From: Patescibacteria group bacterium
GTDB lineage: Bacteria > Patescibacteriota > Patescibacteriia > Patescibacteriales > GWC2-42-12
Assembly (NCBI GenBank): GCA_041653215.1
Contig: JBAZFW010000001.1
Span: 19,202-83,201 of the forward strand
Direction: 5' to 3'
DNA: 64,000 nucleotides
The position numbers and the translations under genes were made by a program. The notes under the pieces are model-generated. The model saw only the letters and a program-made list of their open reading frames with translations. It was not told the origin of the DNA and made no database searches. Positions 1,335-8,045 of this stretch are shown one piece after another. Positions within the stretch are counted from its first letter, which is position 1. Each line of letters opens with the position of its first letter.

Positions 1335-2714
1335 ATGTCAAATAACAAAAAAGTTATAGCTTTACTATTCATCGGGCTTATCGTGGCTTCTTTTTTCTTA
1401 CTAATTGATTTAGATGCTGTTTCAAAAATTTTATTAATAATTTTATTTGGTATTTTTGTTGTCGCTTTTTTAAAACCAATTCAAGGATTATTTCTTTTAA
1501 TAATCGCTAGACCATGCTTAGATATTTTTGCTAATAAAGCTATTATCGCGACTGATAATTTTAGTTTAAATATTGCTTCAATTATCGCGATTCTTACTAT
1601 TTTATTTTCTATAATCATTTTAATAAAAAATTTCTCTAAAGTTAAAACTTTACCGCTTAAATACAACTGGCTGATTTTTATAATCATCGCCTTAGTCTCA
1701 ATTTTTTTCTCTTACAGCGCTTATTTAAGCTTAGCCGAGGGTTTGCGTTTAATAAGTATCTTAGCAATCTACGCGTTAGCTTATCTTTTAATTAACTCGG
1801 AAAAAGATTTAAAAAATTTAATTAAAGCCATAATTATTTCTGCGATTATTCCATCGCTTTTCGCCTTATGGCAATTTTATACTGACAGCGGTTTATCAAT
1901 CCCCTTTGAAGGCATTTACAATAGAATTTACGGCACCTTCGCCCACCCTAATTTATTCGCCTATTATATCCTTATGCCGATAGCTTTGTCGCTTTATCTT
2001 TTTTTAAGCGGCAACAGAAAACAAATAAATAATATTCTATATTTTTTATCAGCAATTTTCTTTATAATAATGTTGGCTCTTACTTTTACCCGCGGCGCCT
2101 GGCTATCATTCTTAATTGTTTTATTAGTAATTGGCATCTTCCGCTATCGCGCTATGTTTATTGCCGCTATAATTTGTTTGGCTCTAGCTTATTTATTTAT
2201 TGAACCATTAAATTACCGCGTTAATGATTTAATGGCCGGGCGTTCAGATAGCTCAATTCAATGGCGCATTAATCTTTGGAACGACGCTAAAGAATATGTT
2301 AAAAGCCAGCCCTTACTGGGTTATGGCGCTGGTGTAGCTAATAAATTAATTATGGATAAGCGCGGTGAAGAATTCGGTTCAAGCGATCCTCATAATGATT
2401 ATTTAAAAATTGCCATTGAGAATGGCTTCGTCGGTTTGCTGGCTTACTTAGCTCTCATAATCGGCTTGTTTATAAAATTAATAAAAAAATATTTTTCTGC
2501 CAATCATAAACAATTTAAAATTTTAATTCTTTCAGTTATCGGCTTATCAATCGCTTTTTATTCTATGAGCGTGGCTGATAATATAATAAGAAACACGGCT
2601 TTAATGTGGTCGTTTTGGGCTTTAATCGGCGCCGTATTTGCTATTCCTGCCATTGCGAGCGACCAGAGAGAGCGAAGCAATCTCACAAATACTGCATCTT
2701 ATAAAAATTCTTAA
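1335..2714 (+). CDS. O-antigen ligase/polymerase (Wzy/WaaL-like) polytopic membrane protein
   Basis: About 10 hydrophobic segments plus a periplasmic-loop region 'FTRGAWLSF...DPHNDYLKI' typical of the O-antigen ligase family. The last ~12 codons are read out of a repeat element. Confidence 0.7.
   Translation: MSNNKKVIALLFIGLIVASFFLLIDLDAVSKILLIILFGIFVVAFLKPIQGLFLLIIARPCLDIFANKAIIATDNFSLNIASIIAILTILFSIIILIKNFSKVKTLPLKYNWLIFIIIALVSIFFSYSAYLSLAEGLRLISILAIYALAYLLINSEKDLKNLIKAIIISAIIPSLFALWQFYTDSGLSIPFEGIYNRIYGTFAHPNLFAYYILMPIALSLYLFLSGNRKQINNILYFLSAIFFIIMLALTFTRGAWLSFLIVLLVIGIFRYRAMFIAAIICLALAYLFIEPLNYRVNDLMAGRSDSSIQWRINLWNDAKEYVKSQPLLGYGAGVANKLIMDKRGEEFGSSDPHNDYLKIAIENGFVGLLAYLALIIGLFIKLIKKYFSANHKQFKILILSVIGLSIAFYSMSVADNIIRNTALMWSFWALIGAVFAIPAIASDQRERSNLTNTASYKNS
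2651..2686. repeat. half-copy of the GTCATTGCGAG...GAAGCAATCTCAC palindromic element, forming the 3' end of the ligase-like ORF
   Basis: 'cattgcgagcgaccagagagagcgaagcaatctcac' resembles the arms of the elements at 8861, 36823 and 45792. Confidence 0.6.
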
Positions 2715-2771: not shown

Positions 2772-2798
2772 CCCCGGTTTCTTTAAAAGAAACCGGGG
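2772..2798. terminator. bidirectional intrinsic terminator between convergent genes
   Basis: 'ccccggtttc tttaaaa gaaaccgggg': 10-bp perfect stem, with an A-run upstream and a T-rich tract downstream. Confidence 0.7.
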
Positions 2799-2818: not shown

Positions 2819-3328
2819 TTAATTCCAGGCGGGTAAATCTGTCGGAACCGACATTGAATCGCCGGTTTCCGTACTTGCAATGATCTCATATGCGCCATTT
2901 TTCCTGGCGTCAAGGCGATAATAAATACTCGCCTGGTTTAGGAGCAACCACTTATCTCCGAACTTGCCCCAAATCCTGATCCAATAAGTTCCCTTTTCCA
3001 AATTCAATTCTGCGATTGCAAAACCGCGATCTTCCTTGGTGTCTACAGCATACTGGCCATCAATTGACACCGGCGTCCAACCTTCAGGGCCTGCTTTGCG
3101 AATGCTCATGTATAGCTGAATCGCGGGCGCTCCTTTACCTCTCTGTAACATGGAGATCGGGACCGCAATTGACATCTTATTAGCAGTTCCTTCGGGACCG
3201 ATTTTCAGGTCGGATGTAAAACCACCGCCTGCCTTAGCGACTGATTTATTCGCGGGCAAAGTAATGCCGGCGAAAGCTGTCGCGCTCAACAAAACGACTA
3301 ACGCAAAAATACATAATACTTTTTTCAT
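2819..3328 (-). CDS. secreted hypothetical protein (signal peptide)
   Basis: N-terminus MKKVLCIFALVVLLSATAFAG; strong SD AAGGAG 7 nt upstream; higher GC than the flanks. Confidence 0.6.
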   Translation of the reverse strand: MKKVLCIFALVVLLSATAFAGITLPANKSVAKAGGGFTSDLKIGPEGTANKMSIAVPISMLQRGKGAPAIQLYMSIRKAGPEGWTPVSIDGQYAVDTKEDRGFAIAELNLEKGTYWIRIWGKFGDKWLLLNQASIYYRLDARKNGAYEIIASTETGDSMSVPTDLPAWN

Positions 3329-3357
3329 GACAATCTCCTTTTTTATCTGTTTTTGTT

Positions 3358-4971
3358 TTATGGTTTATTTTTTATTTCTATCGGCTCTACCTTTTTAGTT
3401 GTAAGCCAATTCCAAAGATCGTCAACATACTGACTTAAATCCAACGTGATATAAATCGGATGTTGTTGATCGCCGTCGCCACCGAAAATTTCTTTGTAAC
3501 CAGTGCCGACATTAAAAAATTTCACGTTTTTATAAGCGACCTTGATGTTCGCCATAATCTCGCCGAAATTAATTAATCCGTCGCTCGCTAAATCGCGCTG
3601 AGATAAACCAAACTCTTTTCCAACGCCCAGCTTAACTGCCGGGGTTATCCGCCAATTGCCAAAATGAAAATCATAAATGGCTTGATCGACGGTGAGCTCA
3701 TAAACCTTGTTATCGCTTGGGTCAGGAGGTAAAGCTCCGTCTTCCCACCGATGTTTATGCTCGGCGTTAAAAACATGACGATACTCAGCGTTCAGCTCTG
3801 TCTCAGGAAGAAAATTTTTACCTTCAACTCTTCTCGGATAATAATTGAGATGAGCAGAAATAATACCTATAGTATCTTCCTGTTTGCTGCGATATATGCC
3901 TGAACCACCTTGTTCTACTCTAGTGTCACCAAACCCGCCTTGATTGTAAAGTTTACCGAACATCGCGTCGATGTCACCGTCGTAATGTTTCTGCGGGTTT
4001 ATGAACTTCAAAGAAGGACCGATAGCCCCTTCTTTCCATTCATAATCGTAATTACGATCGTGGCCTTCACCACCGGCTAAGAACAATGCAACTCCTCCAT
4101 AATAATCGGTGTTGCCAATTTTACCGATGAAACACCGCTCCCTGGCTTTGAGCCAGTAGTAATAGCCAGCGGCATCCTGATCGGGATGGGAATTCTTGTA
4201 ATTCCCGGCTCCCATAATCAGGTCGGTTTTGCAATACCCGTTGTATTCGGAGCACGGCTCTTCCTTGGACTCTTCAACCGGAGTTTCTTCCGGAGGAATC
4301 AGCAGAGCCATAGGCTCTTCGGGCGGTGCAGGCACAGGCTCGGGAATTATTTCCGGTTCGGGCGGTGCAGGCACAGGTTCAGGAACCATTTCTGGTTCCG
4401 GAGACTTGGCTTCTTTCCACCATGCCCAATTACCACAAACTGCTGGTCTAATCAGGAAATAAACTTCATCGCCTAAATCAACTTTGGCAAAAAGCTTTGC
4501 TTCAAGCTGATCTTCGGGTAATTTCACAACAACATTGTCGACAACCTTGTAGTTGCCAAAAATCTGTTGTTCTAATTCCTGACCTTCCGTCATCTGGTAG
4601 GCTTCAAATTCACCCTTTTCGGCTGCAGTAATGAATGCTGCTTTAACCTCTTCTGAAATATTGAAGAGGCTAATCGCCTTAACAACATTTCTGTCGCCGA
4701 AGGGGTTAACTCCACCTTTCTTCCAAACAAAACATTTTTTAGATGCTTTTGCTTGGGGAATCTGGAGTTTTTGACCTACATAGATTAAATTGAAATTTTT
4801 AATCTCCTTGTTCGCCTGGTAAATGGTTACCCATTTAACATTATACTGCTTGGCGATCGAGGAGAGACATTCTCCCTTCTTAACAATGTGTTCGCGCGCC
4901 TGGGCAAGCCCGGTCACGCAAAACATCATTAAAAAGGAAACTATAGCTACTGCAAAAAATGTCTTTTTCAT
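3358..4971 (-). CDS. secreted LysM-domain protein with a Pro-rich tandem repeat and a large G/Y/N/D-rich C-terminal domain
   Basis: Signal peptide; LysM 'HIVKKGECLSSIAKQYNVKWVTIYQANKEIKNFNLIYVGQKLQIP'; repeat EPE..PEPVPAPP x2; SD AAGGAG. Confidence 0.75.
   Translation of the reverse strand: MKKTFFAVAIVSFLMMFCVTGLAQAREHIVKKGECLSSIAKQYNVKWVTIYQANKEIKNFNLIYVGQKLQIPQAKASKKCFVWKKGGVNPFGDRNVVKAISLFNISEEVKAAFITAAEKGEFEAYQMTEGQELEQQIFGNYKVVDNVVVKLPEDQLEAKLFAKVDLGDEVYFLIRPAVCGNWAWWKEAKSPEPEMVPEPVPAPPEPEIIPEPVPAPPEEPMALLIPPEETPVEESKEEPCSEYNGYCKTDLIMGAGNYKNSHPDQDAAGYYYWLKARERCFIGKIGNTDYYGGVALFLAGGEGHDRNYDYEWKEGAIGPSLKFINPQKHYDGDIDAMFGKLYNQGGFGDTRVEQGGSGIYRSKQEDTIGIISAHLNYYPRRVEGKNFLPETELNAEYRHVFNAEHKHRWEDGALPPDPSDNKVYELTVDQAIYDFHFGNWRITPAVKLGVGKEFGLSQRDLASDGLINFGEIMANIKVAYKNVKFFNVGTGYKEIFGGDGDQQHPIYITLDLSQYVDDLWNWLTTKKVEPIEIKNKP
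4321..4398. repeat. 2 x 39-bp tandem repeat inside the LysM gene (13-aa Pro-rich unit)
   Basis: 'gggcggtgcaggcacaggctcgggaattatttccggttc' is followed by 'gggcggtgcaggcacaggttcaggaaccatttctggttc'. Confidence 0.85.
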
Positions 4972-5081
4972 CTTCTTTCTCCTTTTTATTTTTGTTTTTT
5001 GTGTTTGGGCGACTTGCCTTTTTAAATAACTAGTATCTTAGATTTTATTCTTTATCTTTTTTGGGCGCTGAAATTGTCTGA

Positions 5082-5150
5082 ATGGCCAACTGCCATCAGC
5101 AAATCTCCAACTGGAGAACTTTTTCAAGGTCCTCCAACTGGAGGCGCCTT
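5082..5150 (-). promoter_or_regulatory. three hairpins with a conserved AACT (+) / AGUU (-) loop and differing stems, in the 260-nt leader of the LysM gene
   Basis: atggc(c)AACTgccat 5082-5096; tctccAACTggaga 5104-5117; cctccAACTggagg 5131-5144. Confidence 0.5.
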
Positions 5151-5232
5151 CCCAAGATAAATCATAATTTCTTTGATACTTATTATTTGCATTAGCTCGA
5201 CGCAACAAACAATTAATCCCGCATGGCGAGAC

Positions 5233-6258
5233 TTATTTCTTTATTCTGCTATTATATTCCAACACACAACTATTATACTGCTCGTATGTGTTGGCATCTT
5301 TACAGGGCGTTCCCTGGATCGATAACTTCATCTTCTGAGTTAAAGGATGTTCGGATTGCGGCGCTACAACAGCTTTCTCATTAAGAGCAGCTTGTTGATT
5401 GGCGAAAATCTCAAGTCCGATTTGGACTATCTCCGCCACATTAGCCGCATCAGGCATATATGTTCTATAGCCTGGCCGATCAATTTTATCCTCGAAAATC
5501 TTCGGGAGTTGCACGACTTTCACTATCCCGGCGACAATAAAGGTTTGACTTGCACCAATAAATGGTATAGTCGCATAAAGATACCAACCTTTATTAAGAA
5601 AATCTAGAAACGCTCTTGCAGTTGAATCTTCCCTGCAAATCTGTTCGAGCCTTTCTTTACTAATGTTGTAATTGTTAGCGGCAAACTCGACGCCGTACTT
5701 TTTTTCGAATTTCTCGGAAGTTTCCCGGAATTTAATAAACTCGGAATCGTTGTAAGTTCTTACTATCTCCGAATTTTCGTTTACTTCCTTCACTAAATTG
5801 GGATTGACTTCAAAAAAATCTCCAAAACTTTCCGGCTTAAAATCTTGCCAACTATCTATAGGCATACCATTGCCGCTGGCGTTGTAAGCTACCCGGCCTA
5901 AACGGTCGAATACCACAACATATTTTACATCTTCTTTGCGTAAAGCGCCGGACGGTTCGAATATATCCATCCGCAATCTGTTTGATTTGTGCGAAGGATT
6001 AACCGCCCGCAATTGGTACGTCTTGCCGTTCTTGTCTTGAACATAAGACGGCCAGACTATGCTTTGCTGAATACCGGTAGACATCAACTCTAATGGATTT
6101 TGAATTACCGTAATCCATACGAATTTTTCGGCTTTTGTCTCATTGAGATTTGGCACTGCGTGCATATCTGCCCTATTCATCATCGGTTTTGGGAAACAAC
6201 CATATACAACAATCAACGCGACCATCAGCAGGATGGTCATAAAAATATTTCTTTTCAT
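5233..6258 (-). CDS. putative lipoprotein, hypothetical
   Basis: MKRNIFMTILLMVALIVVYGC (lipobox-like VYGC); SD AAGGAGG; no recognisable catalytic motif. Confidence 0.55.
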   Translation of the reverse strand: MKRNIFMTILLMVALIVVYGCFPKPMMNRADMHAVPNLNETKAEKFVWITVIQNPLELMSTGIQQSIVWPSYVQDKNGKTYQLRAVNPSHKSNRLRMDIFEPSGALRKEDVKYVVVFDRLGRVAYNASGNGMPIDSWQDFKPESFGDFFEVNPNLVKEVNENSEIVRTYNDSEFIKFRETSEKFEKKYGVEFAANNYNISKERLEQICREDSTARAFLDFLNKGWYLYATIPFIGASQTFIVAGIVKVVQLPKIFEDKIDRPGYRTYMPDAANVAEIVQIGLEIFANQQAALNEKAVVAPQSEHPLTQKMKLSIQGTPCKDANTYEQYNSCVLEYNSRIKK

Positions 6259-6270
6259 TGTCCATCCTCC

Positions 6271-6990
6271 TTAGGCTTTTTTAATCTCTCTAATTTTCTT
6301 TTTCTTCTTATCTTTTTCAGCCATCAACTTATTAATTTGATCGCCATACTTCTGGCTCTGACGCCAACACTTTTTTACTGTGCGACGTGCATCACCCTCG
6401 TTTTTTTCCCACATTCTCTCGCCGCCATTAATATGACAGAAAGGAATGTAATATCTGTTAAGTTCGGCGTTATATTCAATTTCTGCTTCATAAACGCCAT
6501 CTTCCTCAACGGGAGCAAAAAACTTTCTATCCTGTTTGGCTGTAACAACGGTCTTAGGTTGCCCTTCGACCACCGGTTGCTTTTTGCTTTTCATATAAAG
6601 AGCAAAAGCTACTAACGCAACCATGCAAAATAATCCGAAACCAACAGCGAGCATCAAAGTAAAATTACTTTCTTTCTCTTCTCCTTTACTCTTCTGCGCC
6701 GCGATCGTTTCATCAACGATTTCTTTTACTTCTTCGGCACTGAGCTTTTGAGAGACCGGCCGATCAGGCAAATAATAAATAATTTGCTGACCAACATCCA
6801 CCTGCGTACCCAAATTTTGGTTCCACTGGTGTATCTCCTTGATGTTTATTCCCTGAACTTTCCAGGTAAACATCAATTCGCCAAGTGTATCGCCGGCTTT
6901 TACGGTATAAACAACTTTCTCACCGGCAAACGCCAGCGAACCAACAAACAACATTATAATAACCATTATTGCAACAAATACCTTTTTCAT
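6271..6990 (-). CDS. LysM-domain membrane protein (signal/anchor, LysM, TM, Lys-rich cytoplasmic tail)
   Basis: LysM 'YTVKAGDTLGELMFTWKVQGINIKEIHQWNQNLGTQVDVGQQIIYYLP'; internal TM 'LMLAVGFGLFCMVALVAFALY'. Start moved to ATG 6990 (MKKVFVAIMV...), because the track start at 7032 is a TTG lying inside hairpins. Confidence 0.65.
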   Translation of the reverse strand: MKKVFVAIMVIIMLFVGSLAFAGEKVVYTVKAGDTLGELMFTWKVQGINIKEIHQWNQNLGTQVDVGQQIIYYLPDRPVSQKLSAEEVKEIVDETIAAQKSKGEEKESNFTLMLAVGFGLFCMVALVAFALYMKSKKQPVVEGQPKTVVTAKQDRKFFAPVEEDGVYEAEIEYNAELNRYYIPFCHINGGERMWEKNEGDARRTVKKCWRQSQKYGDQINKLMAEKDKKKKKIREIKKA

Positions 6991-7006
6991 CTTACTACTC
7001 ACTTTC

Positions 7007-7038
7007 CGTCCAACTGGACGATTTTTGGGCAACTGCCC
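7007..7038 (-). promoter_or_regulatory. two more AACT/AGUU-loop hairpins in the leader of the second LysM gene
   Basis: cgtccAACTggacg 7007-7020; gggcAACTgccc 7027-7038. Confidence 0.45.
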
Positions 7039-7163
7039 ATTTTTTTTGTTTAACTAATTGTCAAAGTCCTAATCTATAATTTATCAATCTTGATTCACAA
7101 TGAATCGCAATCGTCGACAATCGCCGAGTGGCATAAATTTAGACCTCCATTCTCGGATAATTT

Positions 7164-8045
7164 TTATAAATCATCCGAATATGGCTTTCCAAATATATTT
7201 TTCATACTTCCCTGTTTAGCGATTTCTTCTTGATTATCTAAATCGTCGTAACCGTTAAAATTATTACTATCAGTATTATCTAAATTTTCACTAAAATTAT
7301 ATTCTGCTTCCGGCAATGTTTCCGTCGGTTCCGCCACGCTTTCTAAAACGGTCGGAGCAAACTCCGGTTCTTTATAAAAATTATCTTCCGTTTTATTTTT
7401 GCTATCGGAAAATTTAGGCATTAATCTAACACTATATTTTTTTTCCGGAAATAAATAAATATAAACACCAGAAAAAATTAATCCCAAAACTAAAGCTAAA
7501 CCAAAATTCAAAATTAAATTAGGCTTGACCGGATACTTACTAGTGATTGGATCATCAATAACTTTAATTGAAACGTTATCAGCGCCACCATGATAAAGGC
7601 CATGTTTAGTTTGCAATGTATAAACTACGGCGCGAGCTATCAAATCAGTTTGCGAACGATCTTTATGATAAATATTTATAGAGATAATACCTGAGTCGCT
7701 ATTAGATTTAGCGCTAACAGTTTTATCCCAAATTTTCATTTGATCTTTTACTGTTTGGCCGAAGTAACTTTTATTAACCGCGTAGCCAGAATTTAAAACA
7801 TTTTCAAAAAATGAATTAGAAGAAATAACCTTGGCTAAAATGTTACTTAAATATTCAGTTGATTTTGCGGCCGTATAAGCATCCAAGCTAACTGAGTCTT
7901 GAATGATTAAAACTTGCGCCCTTGAACCATATTTAAATGGTTGAGCAACGGTTAAAATAGAGGCTAAAAAAATAAAAATTAAAACAAAGGATATAATAGT
8001 GCCTTTTTTCTTATTTATTAGCGATAAATAATCTTTAAATTCCAT
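7164..8045 (-). CDS. Wzz/YveK-like polysaccharide chain-length determinant family protein with an acidic C-terminal tail
   Basis: N-terminus 'DYLSLINKKKGTIISFVLIFIFLASILTVAQPFKYGSRAQVLI', a second TM near residue 180, and glycan-locus context. Confidence 0.55.
   Translation of the reverse strand: MEFKDYLSLINKKKGTIISFVLIFIFLASILTVAQPFKYGSRAQVLIIQDSVSLDAYTAAKSTEYLSNILAKVISSNSFFENVLNSGYAVNKSYFGQTVKDQMKIWDKTVSAKSNSDSGIISINIYHKDRSQTDLIARAVVYTLQTKHGLYHGGADNVSIKVIDDPITSKYPVKPNLILNFGLALVLGLIFSGVYIYLFPEKKYSVRLMPKFSDSKNKTEDNFYKEPEFAPTVLESVAEPTETLPEAEYNFSENLDNTDSNNFNGYDDLDNQEEIAKQGSMKNIFGKPYSDDL

What the first reader, a model, noticed from the sequence alone, without database searches (positions are those of the whole stretch)
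2819..7040. Higher-GC, SD-bearing four-gene island of exported proteins (two with LysM) inserted in the envelope-glycan locus
Hand counts of 60-nt lines give about 45-50% GC here, against about 27-32% in the flanking genes. All four products have signal peptides, an anchor or a lipobox. Three of the genes carry AAGGAG(G) at canonical spacing, whereas flanking native genes have none. The island sits between the O-antigen-ligase-like and Wzz-like genes.
Contents:
- a 169-aa secreted protein;
- a 537-aa LysM protein with a duplicated Pro-rich linker and a ~300-aa G/Y/N/D-rich C-terminal domain;
- a 341-aa lipoprotein;
- a bitopic LysM protein with a Lys-rich cytoplasmic tail.
No enzyme motif is recognisable.
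Inference: a horizontally acquired peptidoglycan-binding surface module. Given the apparent lifestyle of this kind of organism, adhesion to or attack of a host cell wall is a reasonable hypothesis.
Basis: partly seen in the sequence, partly recalled or inferred. Interest (0 to 1): 0.62.

Follow-up and report, generated by a model that had tools for sequence, protein, structure and literature searches.

The report
Wall-tethered barrel operon in Parcubacteria
The GC-rich "island" is not a recent foreign insertion but an old, recombination-prone cell-surface operon of ultra-small Parcubacteria, and its main protein joins a cell-wall anchor to a barrel of the kind otherwise known only from bacterial outer membranes, which this phylum is thought to lack.

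Summary
Four co-directional genes (2819-7032, minus strand) encode only exported proteins. They have the four highest GC3 values of 69 ORFs in the window (z 2.7-4.5) and the window's largest tetranucleotide deviation. Three carry strong SD sites. The block lies between Wzz and a Wzy_C gene.

The block sits at the same site in every relative recovered (none of 8 lineages with both flanks has an empty site) and follows Wzz in two more distant lineages. The GC3 and SD signature is present wherever flanks were available. There are no mobility genes, no flanking repeats, and no phage or plasmid matches. So it is ancestral, not newly inserted.

It is, however, a recombination hotspot. Modules are swapped, and near-clonal strains differ by an imported barrel segment (dS 0.94 against 0.01).

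Protein B is signal peptide, LysM, a novel conserved domain, a duplicated Pro-rich spacer and a roughly 12-stranded outer-membrane-type beta-barrel (Foldseek E 4e-9 to autotransporter barrels). It belongs to an undescribed family of at least 325 clusters; all but one of the named members are from Patescibacteria. Protein D is a bitopic membrane protein whose wall-binding ectodomain is LysM here and OmpA-C in relatives.

Best reading: a wall-tethered barrel module of an outer sheath. Where the barrel sits is unresolved.

The parts
6271..6990 (-). Gene D. A bitopic envelope protein: signal peptide, LysM ectodomain, helical linker, one TM helix (FTLMLAVGFGLFCMVALVAFALYM followed by KSKK), and a ~105-aa cytoplasmic tail ending Lys-rich. 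The ORF is open up to TTG 7032, but the likely start is ATG 6990.
   Evidence: ORF. LysM at Pfam E 8e-4, 19.7 bits, below the 20.9 cutoff; PDB LysM hit at E 0.004. Start: ortholog alignment and leader sequence, plus the 39-nt RBS/start repeat shared with B. In L005, L007 and L013 the ectodomain is OmpA-C instead (Pfam E 1e-6 for L007), while the tail is homologous in L007 and L013.
6991..7065 (-). Leader of D. It has a TTGACA box (7060-7065) and two perfect hairpins with AGUU loops (7026-7039 and 7006-7021).
   Evidence: Sequence. Hairpin scan: 4 of the 11 AGTT-loop hairpins on this strand of the 64-kb window lie in the D and B leaders. None lies in the relatives' leaders.
5233..6258 (-). Gene C. 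A 341-aa lipoprotein (lipobox VVYG|C) with no known domain. It is an accessory module, absent in the L004/L013 and L005 lineages.
   Evidence: ORF and SD AAGGAGG. No Pfam, NCBIfam, PDB or PADLOC hits. Homologs: 46% to 'Parcubacteria group bacterium CG1_02_41_26'. Presence and absence across lineages.
4972..5232 (-). A 261-nt spacer that is the leader of B. It has two AGUU-loop hairpins (5131-5144 and 5104-5117). GC is 0.375.
   Evidence: repeat D9 links it to the D leader.
4756..4971 (-). Gene B, N-terminal part: signal peptide (residues 1-25, cleavage after AQA) and LysM domain (residues 28-72).
   Evidence: Pfam LysM E 3e-12. AF2 model at pLDDT 87 and Foldseek TM about 0.9 to CBM50/LysM structures.
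4396..4737 (-). Gene B, conserved middle domain (residues 79-192): two helices and a six-stranded antiparallel sheet. The motifs W-x-K-G-G-x-N-P-F and P-x-x-C-x-N-W are conserved in close relatives; C179 and N181 are more than 90% conserved across 86 family members. No known relative was found.
   Evidence: Alignments A1, A5 and A6. Model pLDDT 90-95. PDB and viral fold searches return only LysM-driven hits. No Pfam hit.
4228..4395 (-). Gene B, Pro-rich spacer (residues 193-248), including a 39-nt tandem duplication (4318-4395) that encodes PEPVPAPPE twice.
   Evidence: Modelled as disordered.
3439..4227 (-). Gene B, C-terminal outer-membrane-type beta-barrel (residues 249-511). DSSP gives 14 strand segments, which merge into about 12 strands. 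The long loops (346-361, 410-422, 454-468) lie on the face opposite the linker.
   Evidence: AF2 pLDDT 70-88. All top 50 Foldseek PDB hits are OM barrels; the best are autotransporter beta-domains (3aeh E 4e-9; 3qq2 TM 0.75, rmsd 4.3 A). Gly 13%, aromatics 14%. Period-2 hydrophobic alternation across the family, z 6.2. One family member hits Pfam Autotransporter at 2e-4.
3358..3438 (-). Gene B, C-terminal amphipathic helix (residues 513-525, VDDLWNWLTTKKV), short tail and stop codon.
   Evidence: Conserved in homologs.
2819..3328 (-). Gene A. A 169-aa secreted protein (signal peptide ...ATAFA|G) that diverges fast (32-46% identity to orthologs). Its C-terminal motif V-P-x-D-[YL]-P-x-W-[EN] is conserved. 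It is replaced by an unrelated 209-aa secreted protein in L007 and L017.
   Evidence: No family or PDB hit.
2772..2798 (.). A bidirectional intrinsic terminator (12-bp stem, 7 GC pairs), shared by the converging A and Wzy_C genes. It closes the block.
7164..8045 (-). Wzz-like chain-length-determinant (PCP) gene with native composition. It is the block's constant upstream neighbour in every lineage where the upstream region was recovered, including the distant L020 and L021.
   Evidence: Pfam Wzz E 8e-9. Synteny.
1335..2714 (+). Wzy_C (O-antigen ligase / O-oligosaccharyltransferase-type) gene, convergent with the block. It is followed by radical-SAM and glycosyltransferase genes. It is the downstream neighbour in 8 lineages.
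   Evidence: Pfam Wzy_C E 5e-23, weak PglL_A at 0.013. Synteny.

Best explanation
The block is a native, anciently conserved envelope operon pair (D-C and B-A) of a Parcubacteria clade, functionally coupled to the Wzz/Wzy_C surface-glycan locus. Its core is a wall-tethered barrel.

Proposed mechanism:
1. B is exported by Sec.
2. Its LysM domain binds the cell's own peptidoglycan.
3. Its ~55-residue Pro-rich spacer projects outward.
4. Its ~12-stranded outer-membrane-type barrel sits in an outer layer beyond the wall. I favour a largely proteinaceous, glycan-decorated sheath (S-layer or toga-like, perhaps with some lipid), where B acts as both structural tether and pore.
5. D, anchored in the cytoplasmic membrane with a wall-binding ectodomain (LysM or OmpA-C, interchangeable) and a conserved cytoplasmic tail, staples the membrane to the same wall layer.
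6. C (lipoprotein) and A (small secreted protein) are exchangeable accessory subunits.

The strong SD sites, the long structured leaders and the maintained GC-rich codon usage fit an abundant surface protein and/or GC-biased gene conversion at a recombination hotspot.

Shown computationally: the gene set, export signals, domain folds, conservation of position, modular swapping, a recombination import, and persistence of the compositional signature.

Inferred: whose peptidoglycan is bound, the location of the barrel, any pore or tether function, high expression, and the cause of the GC excess.
For: - Fold of B: all top 50 hits are OM barrels; E 4e-9; TM 0.75 to BrkA; family-wide amphipathic alternation, z 6.2; Pfam Autotransporter hit in one member. 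LysM.
- Family size and taxonomy: 325 clusters at E<=1e-3 and 62 at E<=1e-30. 65 of 86 members carry LysM. Named members are Parcubacteria or Patescibacteria, with one exception.
- Ancestral position: same site in all relatives, no empty site. Still linked to Wzz in the distant L020 and L021.
- Wall binding is the selected property: the D ectodomain is swapped LysM for OmpA-C, while the tail is homologous in L007 and L013.
- Maintained signature: the GC3 excess and SD recur in every lineage with comparable flanks and track genome GC.
- Surface-protein-like evolution: flank proteins are 59-95% identical while A and C are 24-46%. The modules form a mosaic. Near-clonal strains differ by an imported barrel segment, dS 0.94 against 0.01, dN/dS 0.11.
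- Real DNA: junctions are confirmed in independent samples.
- Context from the literature: groundwater CPR cells show a periodic surface layer and no classical OM. The Thermotoga toga is a wall-tethered sheath of beta-barrels with few lipids. OmpM/SlpA are wall-domain, spacer and C-terminal-barrel tethers.
Against: - CPR are treated as monoderm, and cryo-TEM shows no outer membrane. No barrel-assembly machinery is known in them.
- The barrel model rests on a 5-sequence alignment (whole-protein mean pLDDT 60). The strand count comes from merging DSSP segments.
- Hydrophobic alternation does not show which face is hydrophobic.
- There are no expression or proteome data; no RNA run was found.
- The window's B gives no Pfam barrel-family hit.
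- The GC excess is weak at fourfold-degenerate sites. That fits neither pure gene conversion nor a simple foreign origin neatly.
Confidence: 0.5

Rival explanations
1. Host-directed device. These epibionts secrete B so that the barrel inserts into the outer membrane of a Gram-negative host at the contact zone, while LysM holds on to the epibiont's (or the host's) wall. This would form an adhesive staple and/or a conduit for nutrients or lipids.
For: - Groundwater CPR attach to Gram-negative hosts, lack their own OM, and show a dense line at the interface. They cannot make fatty acids.
- The barrel and the accessory proteins A and C evolve quickly and are exchanged by recombination, as expected for host-specificity determinants.
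- A Parcubacteria genome carrying the block also encodes an MlaA-type lipid-extraction lipoprotein 4 kb away (Pfam E 6e-30), and it is conserved in a second genome.
Against: - Insertion of a 12-stranded barrel into a foreign OM without BAM has no precedent among bacteria-bacteria interactions known to me.
- The imported barrel segment is under purifying selection (dN/dS 0.11), not positive selection.
- The constant link to Wzz and the membrane-anchored wall-binding partner D point to a resident envelope structure.
- No MlaA is present in this window.
Confidence: 0.2
2. Glycan export or anchoring partner of Wzz. The barrel, the lipoprotein and the wall-binding proteins form the outer part of a Wzx/Wzy-type polysaccharide pathway. 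They would be analogous to the outer-membrane export proteins and beta-barrel porins that pair with PCP (Wzz/Wzc) proteins in diderms. Alternatively, they are the protein substrates glycosylated by the Wzy_C-type ligase, as in S-layer glycosylation clusters (own knowledge).
For: - The block follows Wzz in every lineage where the upstream region was recovered, including two distant ones, one of which lacks an adjacent Wzy.
- Wzy_C, radical-SAM and glycosyltransferase genes lie next door.
- A polysaccharide OM porin (PgaA, 4y25) is among the barrel's fold hits (rank 40).
- The Wzy_C gene gives a weak PglL (protein O-glycosylation ligase) hit, E 0.013.
Against: - No OPX/Wza-like or polysaccharide-binding domain is detectable in A-D.
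- A 12-stranded barrel is smaller than the known 16-18-stranded polysaccharide porins (own knowledge).
- A monoderm needs no outer translocon.
- Co-location is not function.
Confidence: 0.12
3. Autotransporter-type display. The barrel is a type V secretion module whose job is to export the N-terminal LysM and mid domain to the cell surface, where they bind another cell's wall (an adhesin).
For: The best fold matches are classical autotransporter translocators, and the barrel is C-terminal, as in type Va. One family member hits Pfam Autotransporter. N-terminal domains vary across the family: LysM, GH113, and multihaem cytochrome motifs next to the mid domain.
Against: No alpha-helical plug segment is predicted before strand 1, and residues 210-245 are disordered. 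There is no beta-helix passenger. Type V secretion needs an outer membrane, a periplasm and BAM, none of them known in CPR. The LysM-then-barrel order equals the periplasmic anchor of inverse autotransporters, not a passenger.
Confidence: 0.08
4. The barrel prediction is misleading. The C-terminal domain is a soluble or lattice-forming beta-rich domain (for example an S-layer module) with no hydrophobic belt, and the block is simply a set of wall-bound surface proteins.
For: The alignment behind the model is shallow (5 sequences) and global pLDDT is 60. Several strands of the window protein show weak alternation. No Pfam OMP family is hit by the window protein.
Against: Barrel-region pLDDT is 70-88, with 13-21-residue strands in a full meander. 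There are 90 PDB hits at E<=1e-3, and all 50 listed are membrane barrels. Alternation is strong across 86 divergent members. Composition is typical of OMPs.
Confidence: 0.07
5. One reading: a recently acquired genomic island from a higher-GC donor, inserted into the glycan locus of this genome.
For: GC3, codon usage and tetranucleotide composition are outliers within the window. SD sites are present. One barrel-only relative is labelled Ca. Electrothrix, a diderm, which leaves a very old transfer of the barrel domain conceivable.
Against: The position is the same in all relatives, with no empty site. The signature is retained across lineages whose flank proteins are only 35-47% identical. Block GC tracks host genome GC. 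There are no mobility genes, flanking repeats, or phage or plasmid matches.
Confidence: 0.03

Closest known systems
OmpM / SlpA (and the bipartite Omp-alpha / Omp-beta of Thermotoga): outer-membrane-to-wall tethers of diderm Terrabacteria
   Same: [quoted passage not shown] CPR belong to the same large bacterial clade, Terrabacteria. The toga shows that barrels can form a mostly proteinaceous sheath.
   Different: The wall domain is LysM, not SLH. The spacer is Pro-rich, not a coiled coil. An extra conserved mid domain is present. The barrel's best matches are 12-stranded autotransporter-type barrels. There is no sequence similarity to these tethers. The host phylum is regarded as monoderm, and no BamA is known there.
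Inverse autotransporters (type Ve: intimin, invasin, YeeJ)
   Same: Signal peptide, then a peptidoglycan-binding LysM, then a 12-stranded barrel (own knowledge; YeeJ paper listed; the intimin LysM region 2mpw appears among the fold hits).
   Different: There is no C-terminal passenger: only about 26 residues follow the barrel. No Pfam IAT_beta hit. A ~110-aa mid domain and a ~55-aa Pro-rich spacer lie between LysM and the barrel.
Classical autotransporter beta-domains (type Va: Hbp, BrkA, EspP, NalP, AIDA-I translocators)
   Same: These are the best structural matches of the barrel (E 4e-9 to 7e-6; TM up to 0.75 normalised to the target). The barrel is C-terminal. One family member reaches Pfam PF03797 at 2e-4.
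   Different: No predicted pore-plugging helix before the barrel. No beta-helical passenger. The window protein gives no PF03797 hit.
OmpA / Pal / MotB-type OmpA-C wall anchors
   Same: The protein at the D position in L005, L007 and L013 carries an OmpA-C-like domain (Pfam E 1e-6 for L007, above cutoff). E. coli OmpA likewise joins a barrel to a wall domain through a Pro-rich hinge (own knowledge).
   Different: In this window D uses LysM. D is a type I bitopic protein with a cytoplasmic tail. It is neither a barrel fusion nor a stator: its TM helix has no conserved Asp, and the weak ZorB/MotB hit (E 0.002) covers only the TM stretch.
S-layer protein genes next to S-layer glycosylation (slg) clusters of Gram-positive bacteria (own knowledge)
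   Same: Wall-anchored surface protein genes embedded in a Wzy_C-ligase and glycosyltransferase locus. Strong RBS, long structured leaders, and rapid, recombination-driven variation.
   Different: No S-layer protein family is hit. The anchored domain is an OM-type barrel. Expression level and lattice formation are unknown.

Membership tests
LysM domain (Pfam PF01476 / CBM50) | Profile match above the gathering score, and a beta-alpha-alpha-beta fold | tested here: met
   B: 46.6 bits against a 20.9 cutoff. The model superposes on CBM50/LysM structures at TM about 0.9, rmsd about 1 A.
LysM domain (Pfam PF01476 / CBM50) | The same criteria, applied to protein D | tested here: inconclusive
   D: 19.7 bits, just under the 20.9 cutoff. 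PDB AtlA LysM at E 0.004. No structure was predicted for D.
Classical autotransporter (type Va, PF03797) | C-terminal 12-stranded OM beta-barrel | tested here: met
   Foldseek top hits 3aeh, 3qq2, 2qom, 1uyn and 4mee. About 12 strands after merging DSSP segments (the merging is my inference).
Classical autotransporter (type Va, PF03797) | Sequence membership in PF03797 | tested here: not met
   No hit for the window protein at E<=0.1. Only 1 of 86 family members hits, at 2e-4.
Classical autotransporter (type Va, PF03797) | An alpha-helical linker inside the pore, and a beta-helical or other large N-terminal passenger | tested here: not met
   Residues 210-245 are predicted disordered. The N-terminal part is LysM plus a ~110-aa alpha/beta domain.
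Inverse autotransporter (type Ve, PF11924) | N-terminal LysM followed by a 12-stranded barrel | tested here: met
Inverse autotransporter (type Ve, PF11924) | C-terminal passenger (Ig-like or lectin repeats) after the barrel, and an IAT_beta profile match | tested here: not met
   Only residues 512-537 follow the barrel. No PF11924 hit.
OmpM / SlpA tether | N-terminal SLH domain and a coiled-coil stalk | tested here: not met
   No SLH hit in any of 86 members. The spacer is Pro-rich and predicted disordered.
OmpM / SlpA tether | Wall-binding domain, spacer and C-terminal OM barrel in one chain (the functional architecture) | tested here: met
True outer-membrane protein (any family) | The organism has an outer membrane and BAM/Omp85 machinery | not testable with these tools
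The literature treats CPR as monoderm.
Recently acquired genomic island | Atypical composition relative to the host genome | tested here: met
   GC3 z 2.7-4.5; tetranucleotide z 3.9.
Recently acquired genomic island | Absent from (an empty site in) close relatives | tested here: not met
   Present at the same site in all 8 lineages with both flanks.
Recently acquired genomic island | Mobility genes, flanking direct repeats or tRNA integration, or carriage on phages or plasmids | tested here: not met
   No such ORFs. No boundary repeats. The tRNAs are about 2.7 kb away, beyond two native genes. No phage or plasmid match.

The most novel reading that the evidence does not exclude
A large branch of Parcubacteria is not simply monoderm. 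These cells would build, without a known BAM machine, a toga-like outer sheath from LysM-tethered outer-membrane-type barrels (B). The sheath would be stapled to the wall together with a membrane-anchored partner (D) and coated by the adjacent Wzz/Wzy_C glycan pathway. The periodic 'S-layer' seen on groundwater CPR cells would then be this barrel array. The sheath (or barrels planted in the host's outer membrane, helped by MlaA-type lipoproteins in some lineages) would be the interface through which these lipid-auxotrophic epibionts deal with their hosts.
Probability: 0.3. Interest if true: 0.9.

Novelty: new variant of a known kind. Interest (0 to 1): 0.72.

Why it matters
CPR/Patescibacteria may make up a large share of bacterial diversity. 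Evolutionary scenarios for the origin and loss of the outer membrane use them as a monoderm clade. A widespread, conserved, wall-tethered barrel of outer-membrane type in this phylum would do one of two things. It would revise the picture of the CPR envelope (a second, sheath-like layer), or it would reveal a new way in which epibionts engage a host's outer membrane.

It also gives concrete, testable candidates for the unknown surface-layer proteins seen by cryo-EM.

For genome scanning in general, it is a clear case where an 'island' signature (GC, codon usage, SD) is a maintained property of a vertically inherited, recombination-prone surface operon, not a mark of recent foreign origin.

The held literature (8.4 million papers) contains no description of LysM-barrel proteins in CPR.

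Tried and rejected
- The word-indexed homology search suggested that B was nearly an orphan, with 4 relatives. The exhaustive profile search corrected this to at least 325 clusters.
- No expression evidence: no RNA run holds the genes.
- Pfam, NCBIfam, PHROGs and PADLOC give nothing beyond LysM for A-D. The PHROG 'endolysin' hits cover only the LysM. The ZorB/MotB hit to D (E 0.002) covers only the TM stretch, and I reject it.
- PDB sequence searches for A, C, D and the LysM-free profile of B found no relatives.
- Fold searches with the LysM and mid-domain model (PDB and viral) are dominated by LysM, so the mid domain stays unassigned.
- Translational selection restricted to C-ending pyrimidine codons is rejected as the sole cause of the GC3 excess, because G-ending codons rise too. 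Pure gene conversion is not clean either, because fourfold-degenerate sites shift little.
- Mis-assembly is rejected. Phage, plasmid or defence-island origin is rejected.
- The AGUU leader hairpins are not conserved in relatives, so they are not a family-wide regulatory element.
- The MlaA lead: the single metagenome scan found only the same lineage (L023, L024) and one distant hit. No MlaA lies in this window.

Full report
OBSERVATION. The window is AT-rich (GC 0.349; 1-kb sd 0.038). On the minus strand it carries four co-directional ORFs: A 2819-3328, B 3358-4971, C 5233-6258 and D 6271-7032. Their GC is 0.40-0.47, against 0.31-0.33 in the adjacent genes. GC3 is 0.40-0.49, the four highest of 69 ORFs (z 2.7-4.5). 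The composition-normalised tetranucleotide distance peaks on 3001-7000 (z 3.9). The codon shift is broad, with both G- and C-ending codons rising, but it is weak at fourfold-degenerate sites. AAGGAG(G) precedes A, B and C. Only 10 of 69 genes in the window have such a site.

The flanks are a Wzy_C gene and a Wzz gene. The Pro-rich linker of B contains a 39-nt tandem duplication. D more probably starts at ATG 6990. Contigs from independent groundwater and landfill samples cross both GC boundaries without mismatch.

IS IT AN INSERTED ISLAND? No. I fetched the contigs that encode relatives of B and C, and used the flanking Wzy_C gene as bait in the species-representative genome collection. The same block lies between Wzz and Wzy_C in L001, the L004/L013 lineage, L007-L012 ('Parcubacteria group bacterium CG1_02_41_26'), L015, L016 (Ca. 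Falkowbacteria), L017 and the distant L021. It follows Wzz in L020. No empty site was found.

In every lineage where flanks allowed a comparison, the block is GC3-richer than its flanks and carries SD sites. Its GC tracks the genome's GC with a positive offset. There are no mobility genes, no boundary repeats, and no phage or plasmid matches. The signature is therefore a maintained property of an ancestral operon.

HOW IT EVOLVES. Flank proteins are 59-95% identical between these genomes. Between the window and L001, B is 68%, D 59%, A 37% and C 34% identical. The block is modular:
- C is missing in two lineages.
- A is replaced by an unrelated 209-aa protein in two.
- A fifth lipoprotein, X, occurs in L001, the L004/L013 lineage and L020.
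- The ectodomain of D is LysM in some lineages and OmpA-C in others, while the cytoplasmic tail is homologous in L007 and L013.
- B itself is chimeric. L015 has the closest mid domain to the window's but a different barrel type.
- Similarities are discordant: the window's C is closest to L007's, while its barrel is closest to L001's.

Near-clonal Crystal Geyser variants differ by 0-0.3% everywhere except the last ~700 nt of B, which differ by 19-25%. In that segment dS is 0.94 and dN/dS is 0.11, against dS 0.01 upstream. That is a homologous-recombination import with a breakpoint inside the barrel. The locus is a recombination hotspot. That offers GC-biased gene conversion as one candidate cause of the GC excess (inference). 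Selection for high expression is the other.

WHAT THE PROTEINS ARE. B has a signal peptide and a LysM domain (Pfam E 3e-12; TM about 0.9 to LysM structures). Next comes a confidently modelled middle domain (pLDDT 90-95) of two helices and a six-stranded sheet. It has no structural or sequence relative. C179 and N181 are more than 90% conserved across 86 family members.

After that come a ~55-residue Pro-rich spacer and a C-terminal domain modelled at pLDDT 70-88 as a meander of long antiparallel strands. All 50 top PDB matches of that domain are outer-membrane barrels, led by 12-stranded autotransporter translocators (E 4e-9; TM 0.75). Its composition (Gly 13%, aromatics 14%) agrees with this, as does the strong family-wide period-2 hydrophobic alternation (z 6.2).

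An exhaustive profile search without the LysM finds 325 representative clusters (62 at E<=1e-30). Of 86 sampled, 65 carry LysM, 3 carry GH113 and one hits Pfam Autotransporter. Named members are Parcubacteria or Patescibacteria. The one exception is a barrel-only GH113 fusion labelled Ca. Electrothrix, on an 8-kb contig that may be mis-binned.

D is a type I bitopic protein: wall-binding ectodomain, one TM helix, then a ~105-aa cytoplasmic tail. C is a lipoprotein and A a small secreted protein with a conserved C-terminal VPxD[YL]PxW motif. Neither has any detectable relative outside this block.

The block has two sub-units, D-C and B-A. Each is preceded by a leader with AGUU-loop hairpins, and a strong bidirectional terminator closes the block. 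The hairpins are not conserved in relatives.

HOW IT MOST LIKELY WORKS. The architecture of B (wall-binding domain, long spacer, C-terminal barrel) is that of the outer-membrane-to-wall tethers OmpM/SlpA, and of OmpA in reverse order. The free exchange of LysM and OmpA-C in D shows that wall binding is the selected function.

The literature treats CPR as monoderm. Cryo-TEM of groundwater CPR shows a periodic surface layer (3.8 and 10 nm) but no outer membrane, on cells attached to Gram-negative hosts. The Thermotoga toga shows that wall-tethered barrels can form a largely proteinaceous sheath with few lipids and a 9.8-nm lattice.

I therefore favour, at about 0.5, a resident outer sheath in which B is tether and pore, D staples the membrane to the wall, and the adjacent Wzz/Wzy_C pathway supplies the glycan. 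The strong SD sites, structured leaders and distinct codon usage fit an abundant surface protein (inference; no RNA data).

The rivals are:
- insertion of the barrel into the host's outer membrane (0.2). This is encouraged by an MlaA lipoprotein near the block in L020 and L024, although MlaA is reported absent from Terrabacteria;
- a glycan export or anchoring role with Wzz (0.12);
- autotransporter-like display (0.08);
- a mis-predicted, non-membrane barrel (0.07);
- recent HGT (0.03).

COMPARISON AND NOVELTY. B fails membership tests for classical autotransporters (no PF03797 hit, no plug helix, no passenger). It fails those for inverse autotransporters (no C-terminal passenger, no IAT_beta hit) and for OmpM (no SLH domain, no coiled coil). 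It works like a tether but is not a member of these families. The held literature has no description of such proteins in CPR.

Earlier follow-ups of this scan reached the same barrel reading in other genomes. I saw these notes only after my own fold result and treat them as agreement, not as evidence.

New in this report:
- the modular and mosaic structure of the block;
- the intragenic recombination import;
- the LysM/OmpA-C swap in D;
- the constant coupling to Wzz even without Wzy;
- the conserved Cys-x-Asn in the mid domain;
- the MlaA lead.

The barrel model rests on 5 sequences. A, C and D were not modelled.

Noticed in passing
L020:2819-3751 (also L024:1005-1877): A Parcubacteria genome (565-kb contig, GCA_018897195.1) that carries the block also encodes a full-length MlaA-type lipoprotein (Pfam E 5.7e-30) with its own strong SD, 4 kb from the block. 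The gene is conserved in a second genome: the MlaA domain is 77% identical while the neighbouring ThrRS is 97%. MlaA is an outer-membrane lipid-extraction protein and is reported absent from Terrabacteria.
   Followed up: partly
window 7006-7039 and 5104-5144: Four perfect 4-6-bp hairpins with an invariant AGUU loop lie only in the leaders of D and B. They account for 4 of the 11 such hairpins on that strand of the 64-kb window. Relatives' leaders have none, so they are lineage-specific.
   Followed up: partly
window 5233-6258 and 6271-7032: Public gene calls truncate C to 310 aa (start at M32, P0006) and D to 231 aa (start at M23, P0169). That removes the lipobox of C and the signal peptide of D. 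The longer forms agree with the orthologs and the SD positions.
   Followed up: yes
L013, L014 (record titles): Two TPA MAG records whose contigs are plainly of this Parcubacteria lineage are titled 'uncultured Gammaproteobacteria bacterium'. L014 lies on the same contig as L001, whose DnaB is 91% identical to the window's, and L013's rSAM is 95% identical to the window's. This is probably a taxonomic mislabel.
   Followed up: no
P0103, P0139, P0154; P0121 / L022:2991-5261: Both unknown domains of B are modular elsewhere. Three proteins combine the mid domain with 2-3 CxxCH haem motifs. Three family members fuse the barrel to a GH113 glycoside hydrolase, one of them on an 8-kb 'Ca. Electrothrix' contig among mur genes that may be mis-binned.
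   Followed up: partly
P0095: A 1756-aa protein matches the B profile in 16 separate stretches, all to profile positions around 340-391. It looks like a long tandem array of one barrel hairpin motif.
   Followed up: no
window, whole: Only 10 of 69 genes have an SD-like site. Apart from the block, these are mostly small genes outside housekeeping operons. Most housekeeping genes have AT-rich upstream regions ending in ...AT(T)AAT... or similar. This suggests two classes of translation initiation in this organism.
   Followed up: partly
L016:10296-11554: DnaB matches in two pieces that overlap by 28 nt on the DNA and skip residues 265-297 of the query. This suggests a frameshift, a deletion or an assembly error in that MAG.
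   Followed up: no
L015:17365-17475: A 40-residue stretch of the MiaB/MtaB-like protein (window residues 185-224) also matches on the opposite strand in L015.
   Followed up: no
L001:12401-13075, L004:2792-3517, L020:10486-11193: A fifth block gene, X, encodes a Cys-rich lipoprotein (224-241 aa; 78% identical between L001 and L004; GC3 0.42-0.51). It is present in some lineages and absent from the window, where only 104 nt separate A from Wzy_C.
   Followed up: partly
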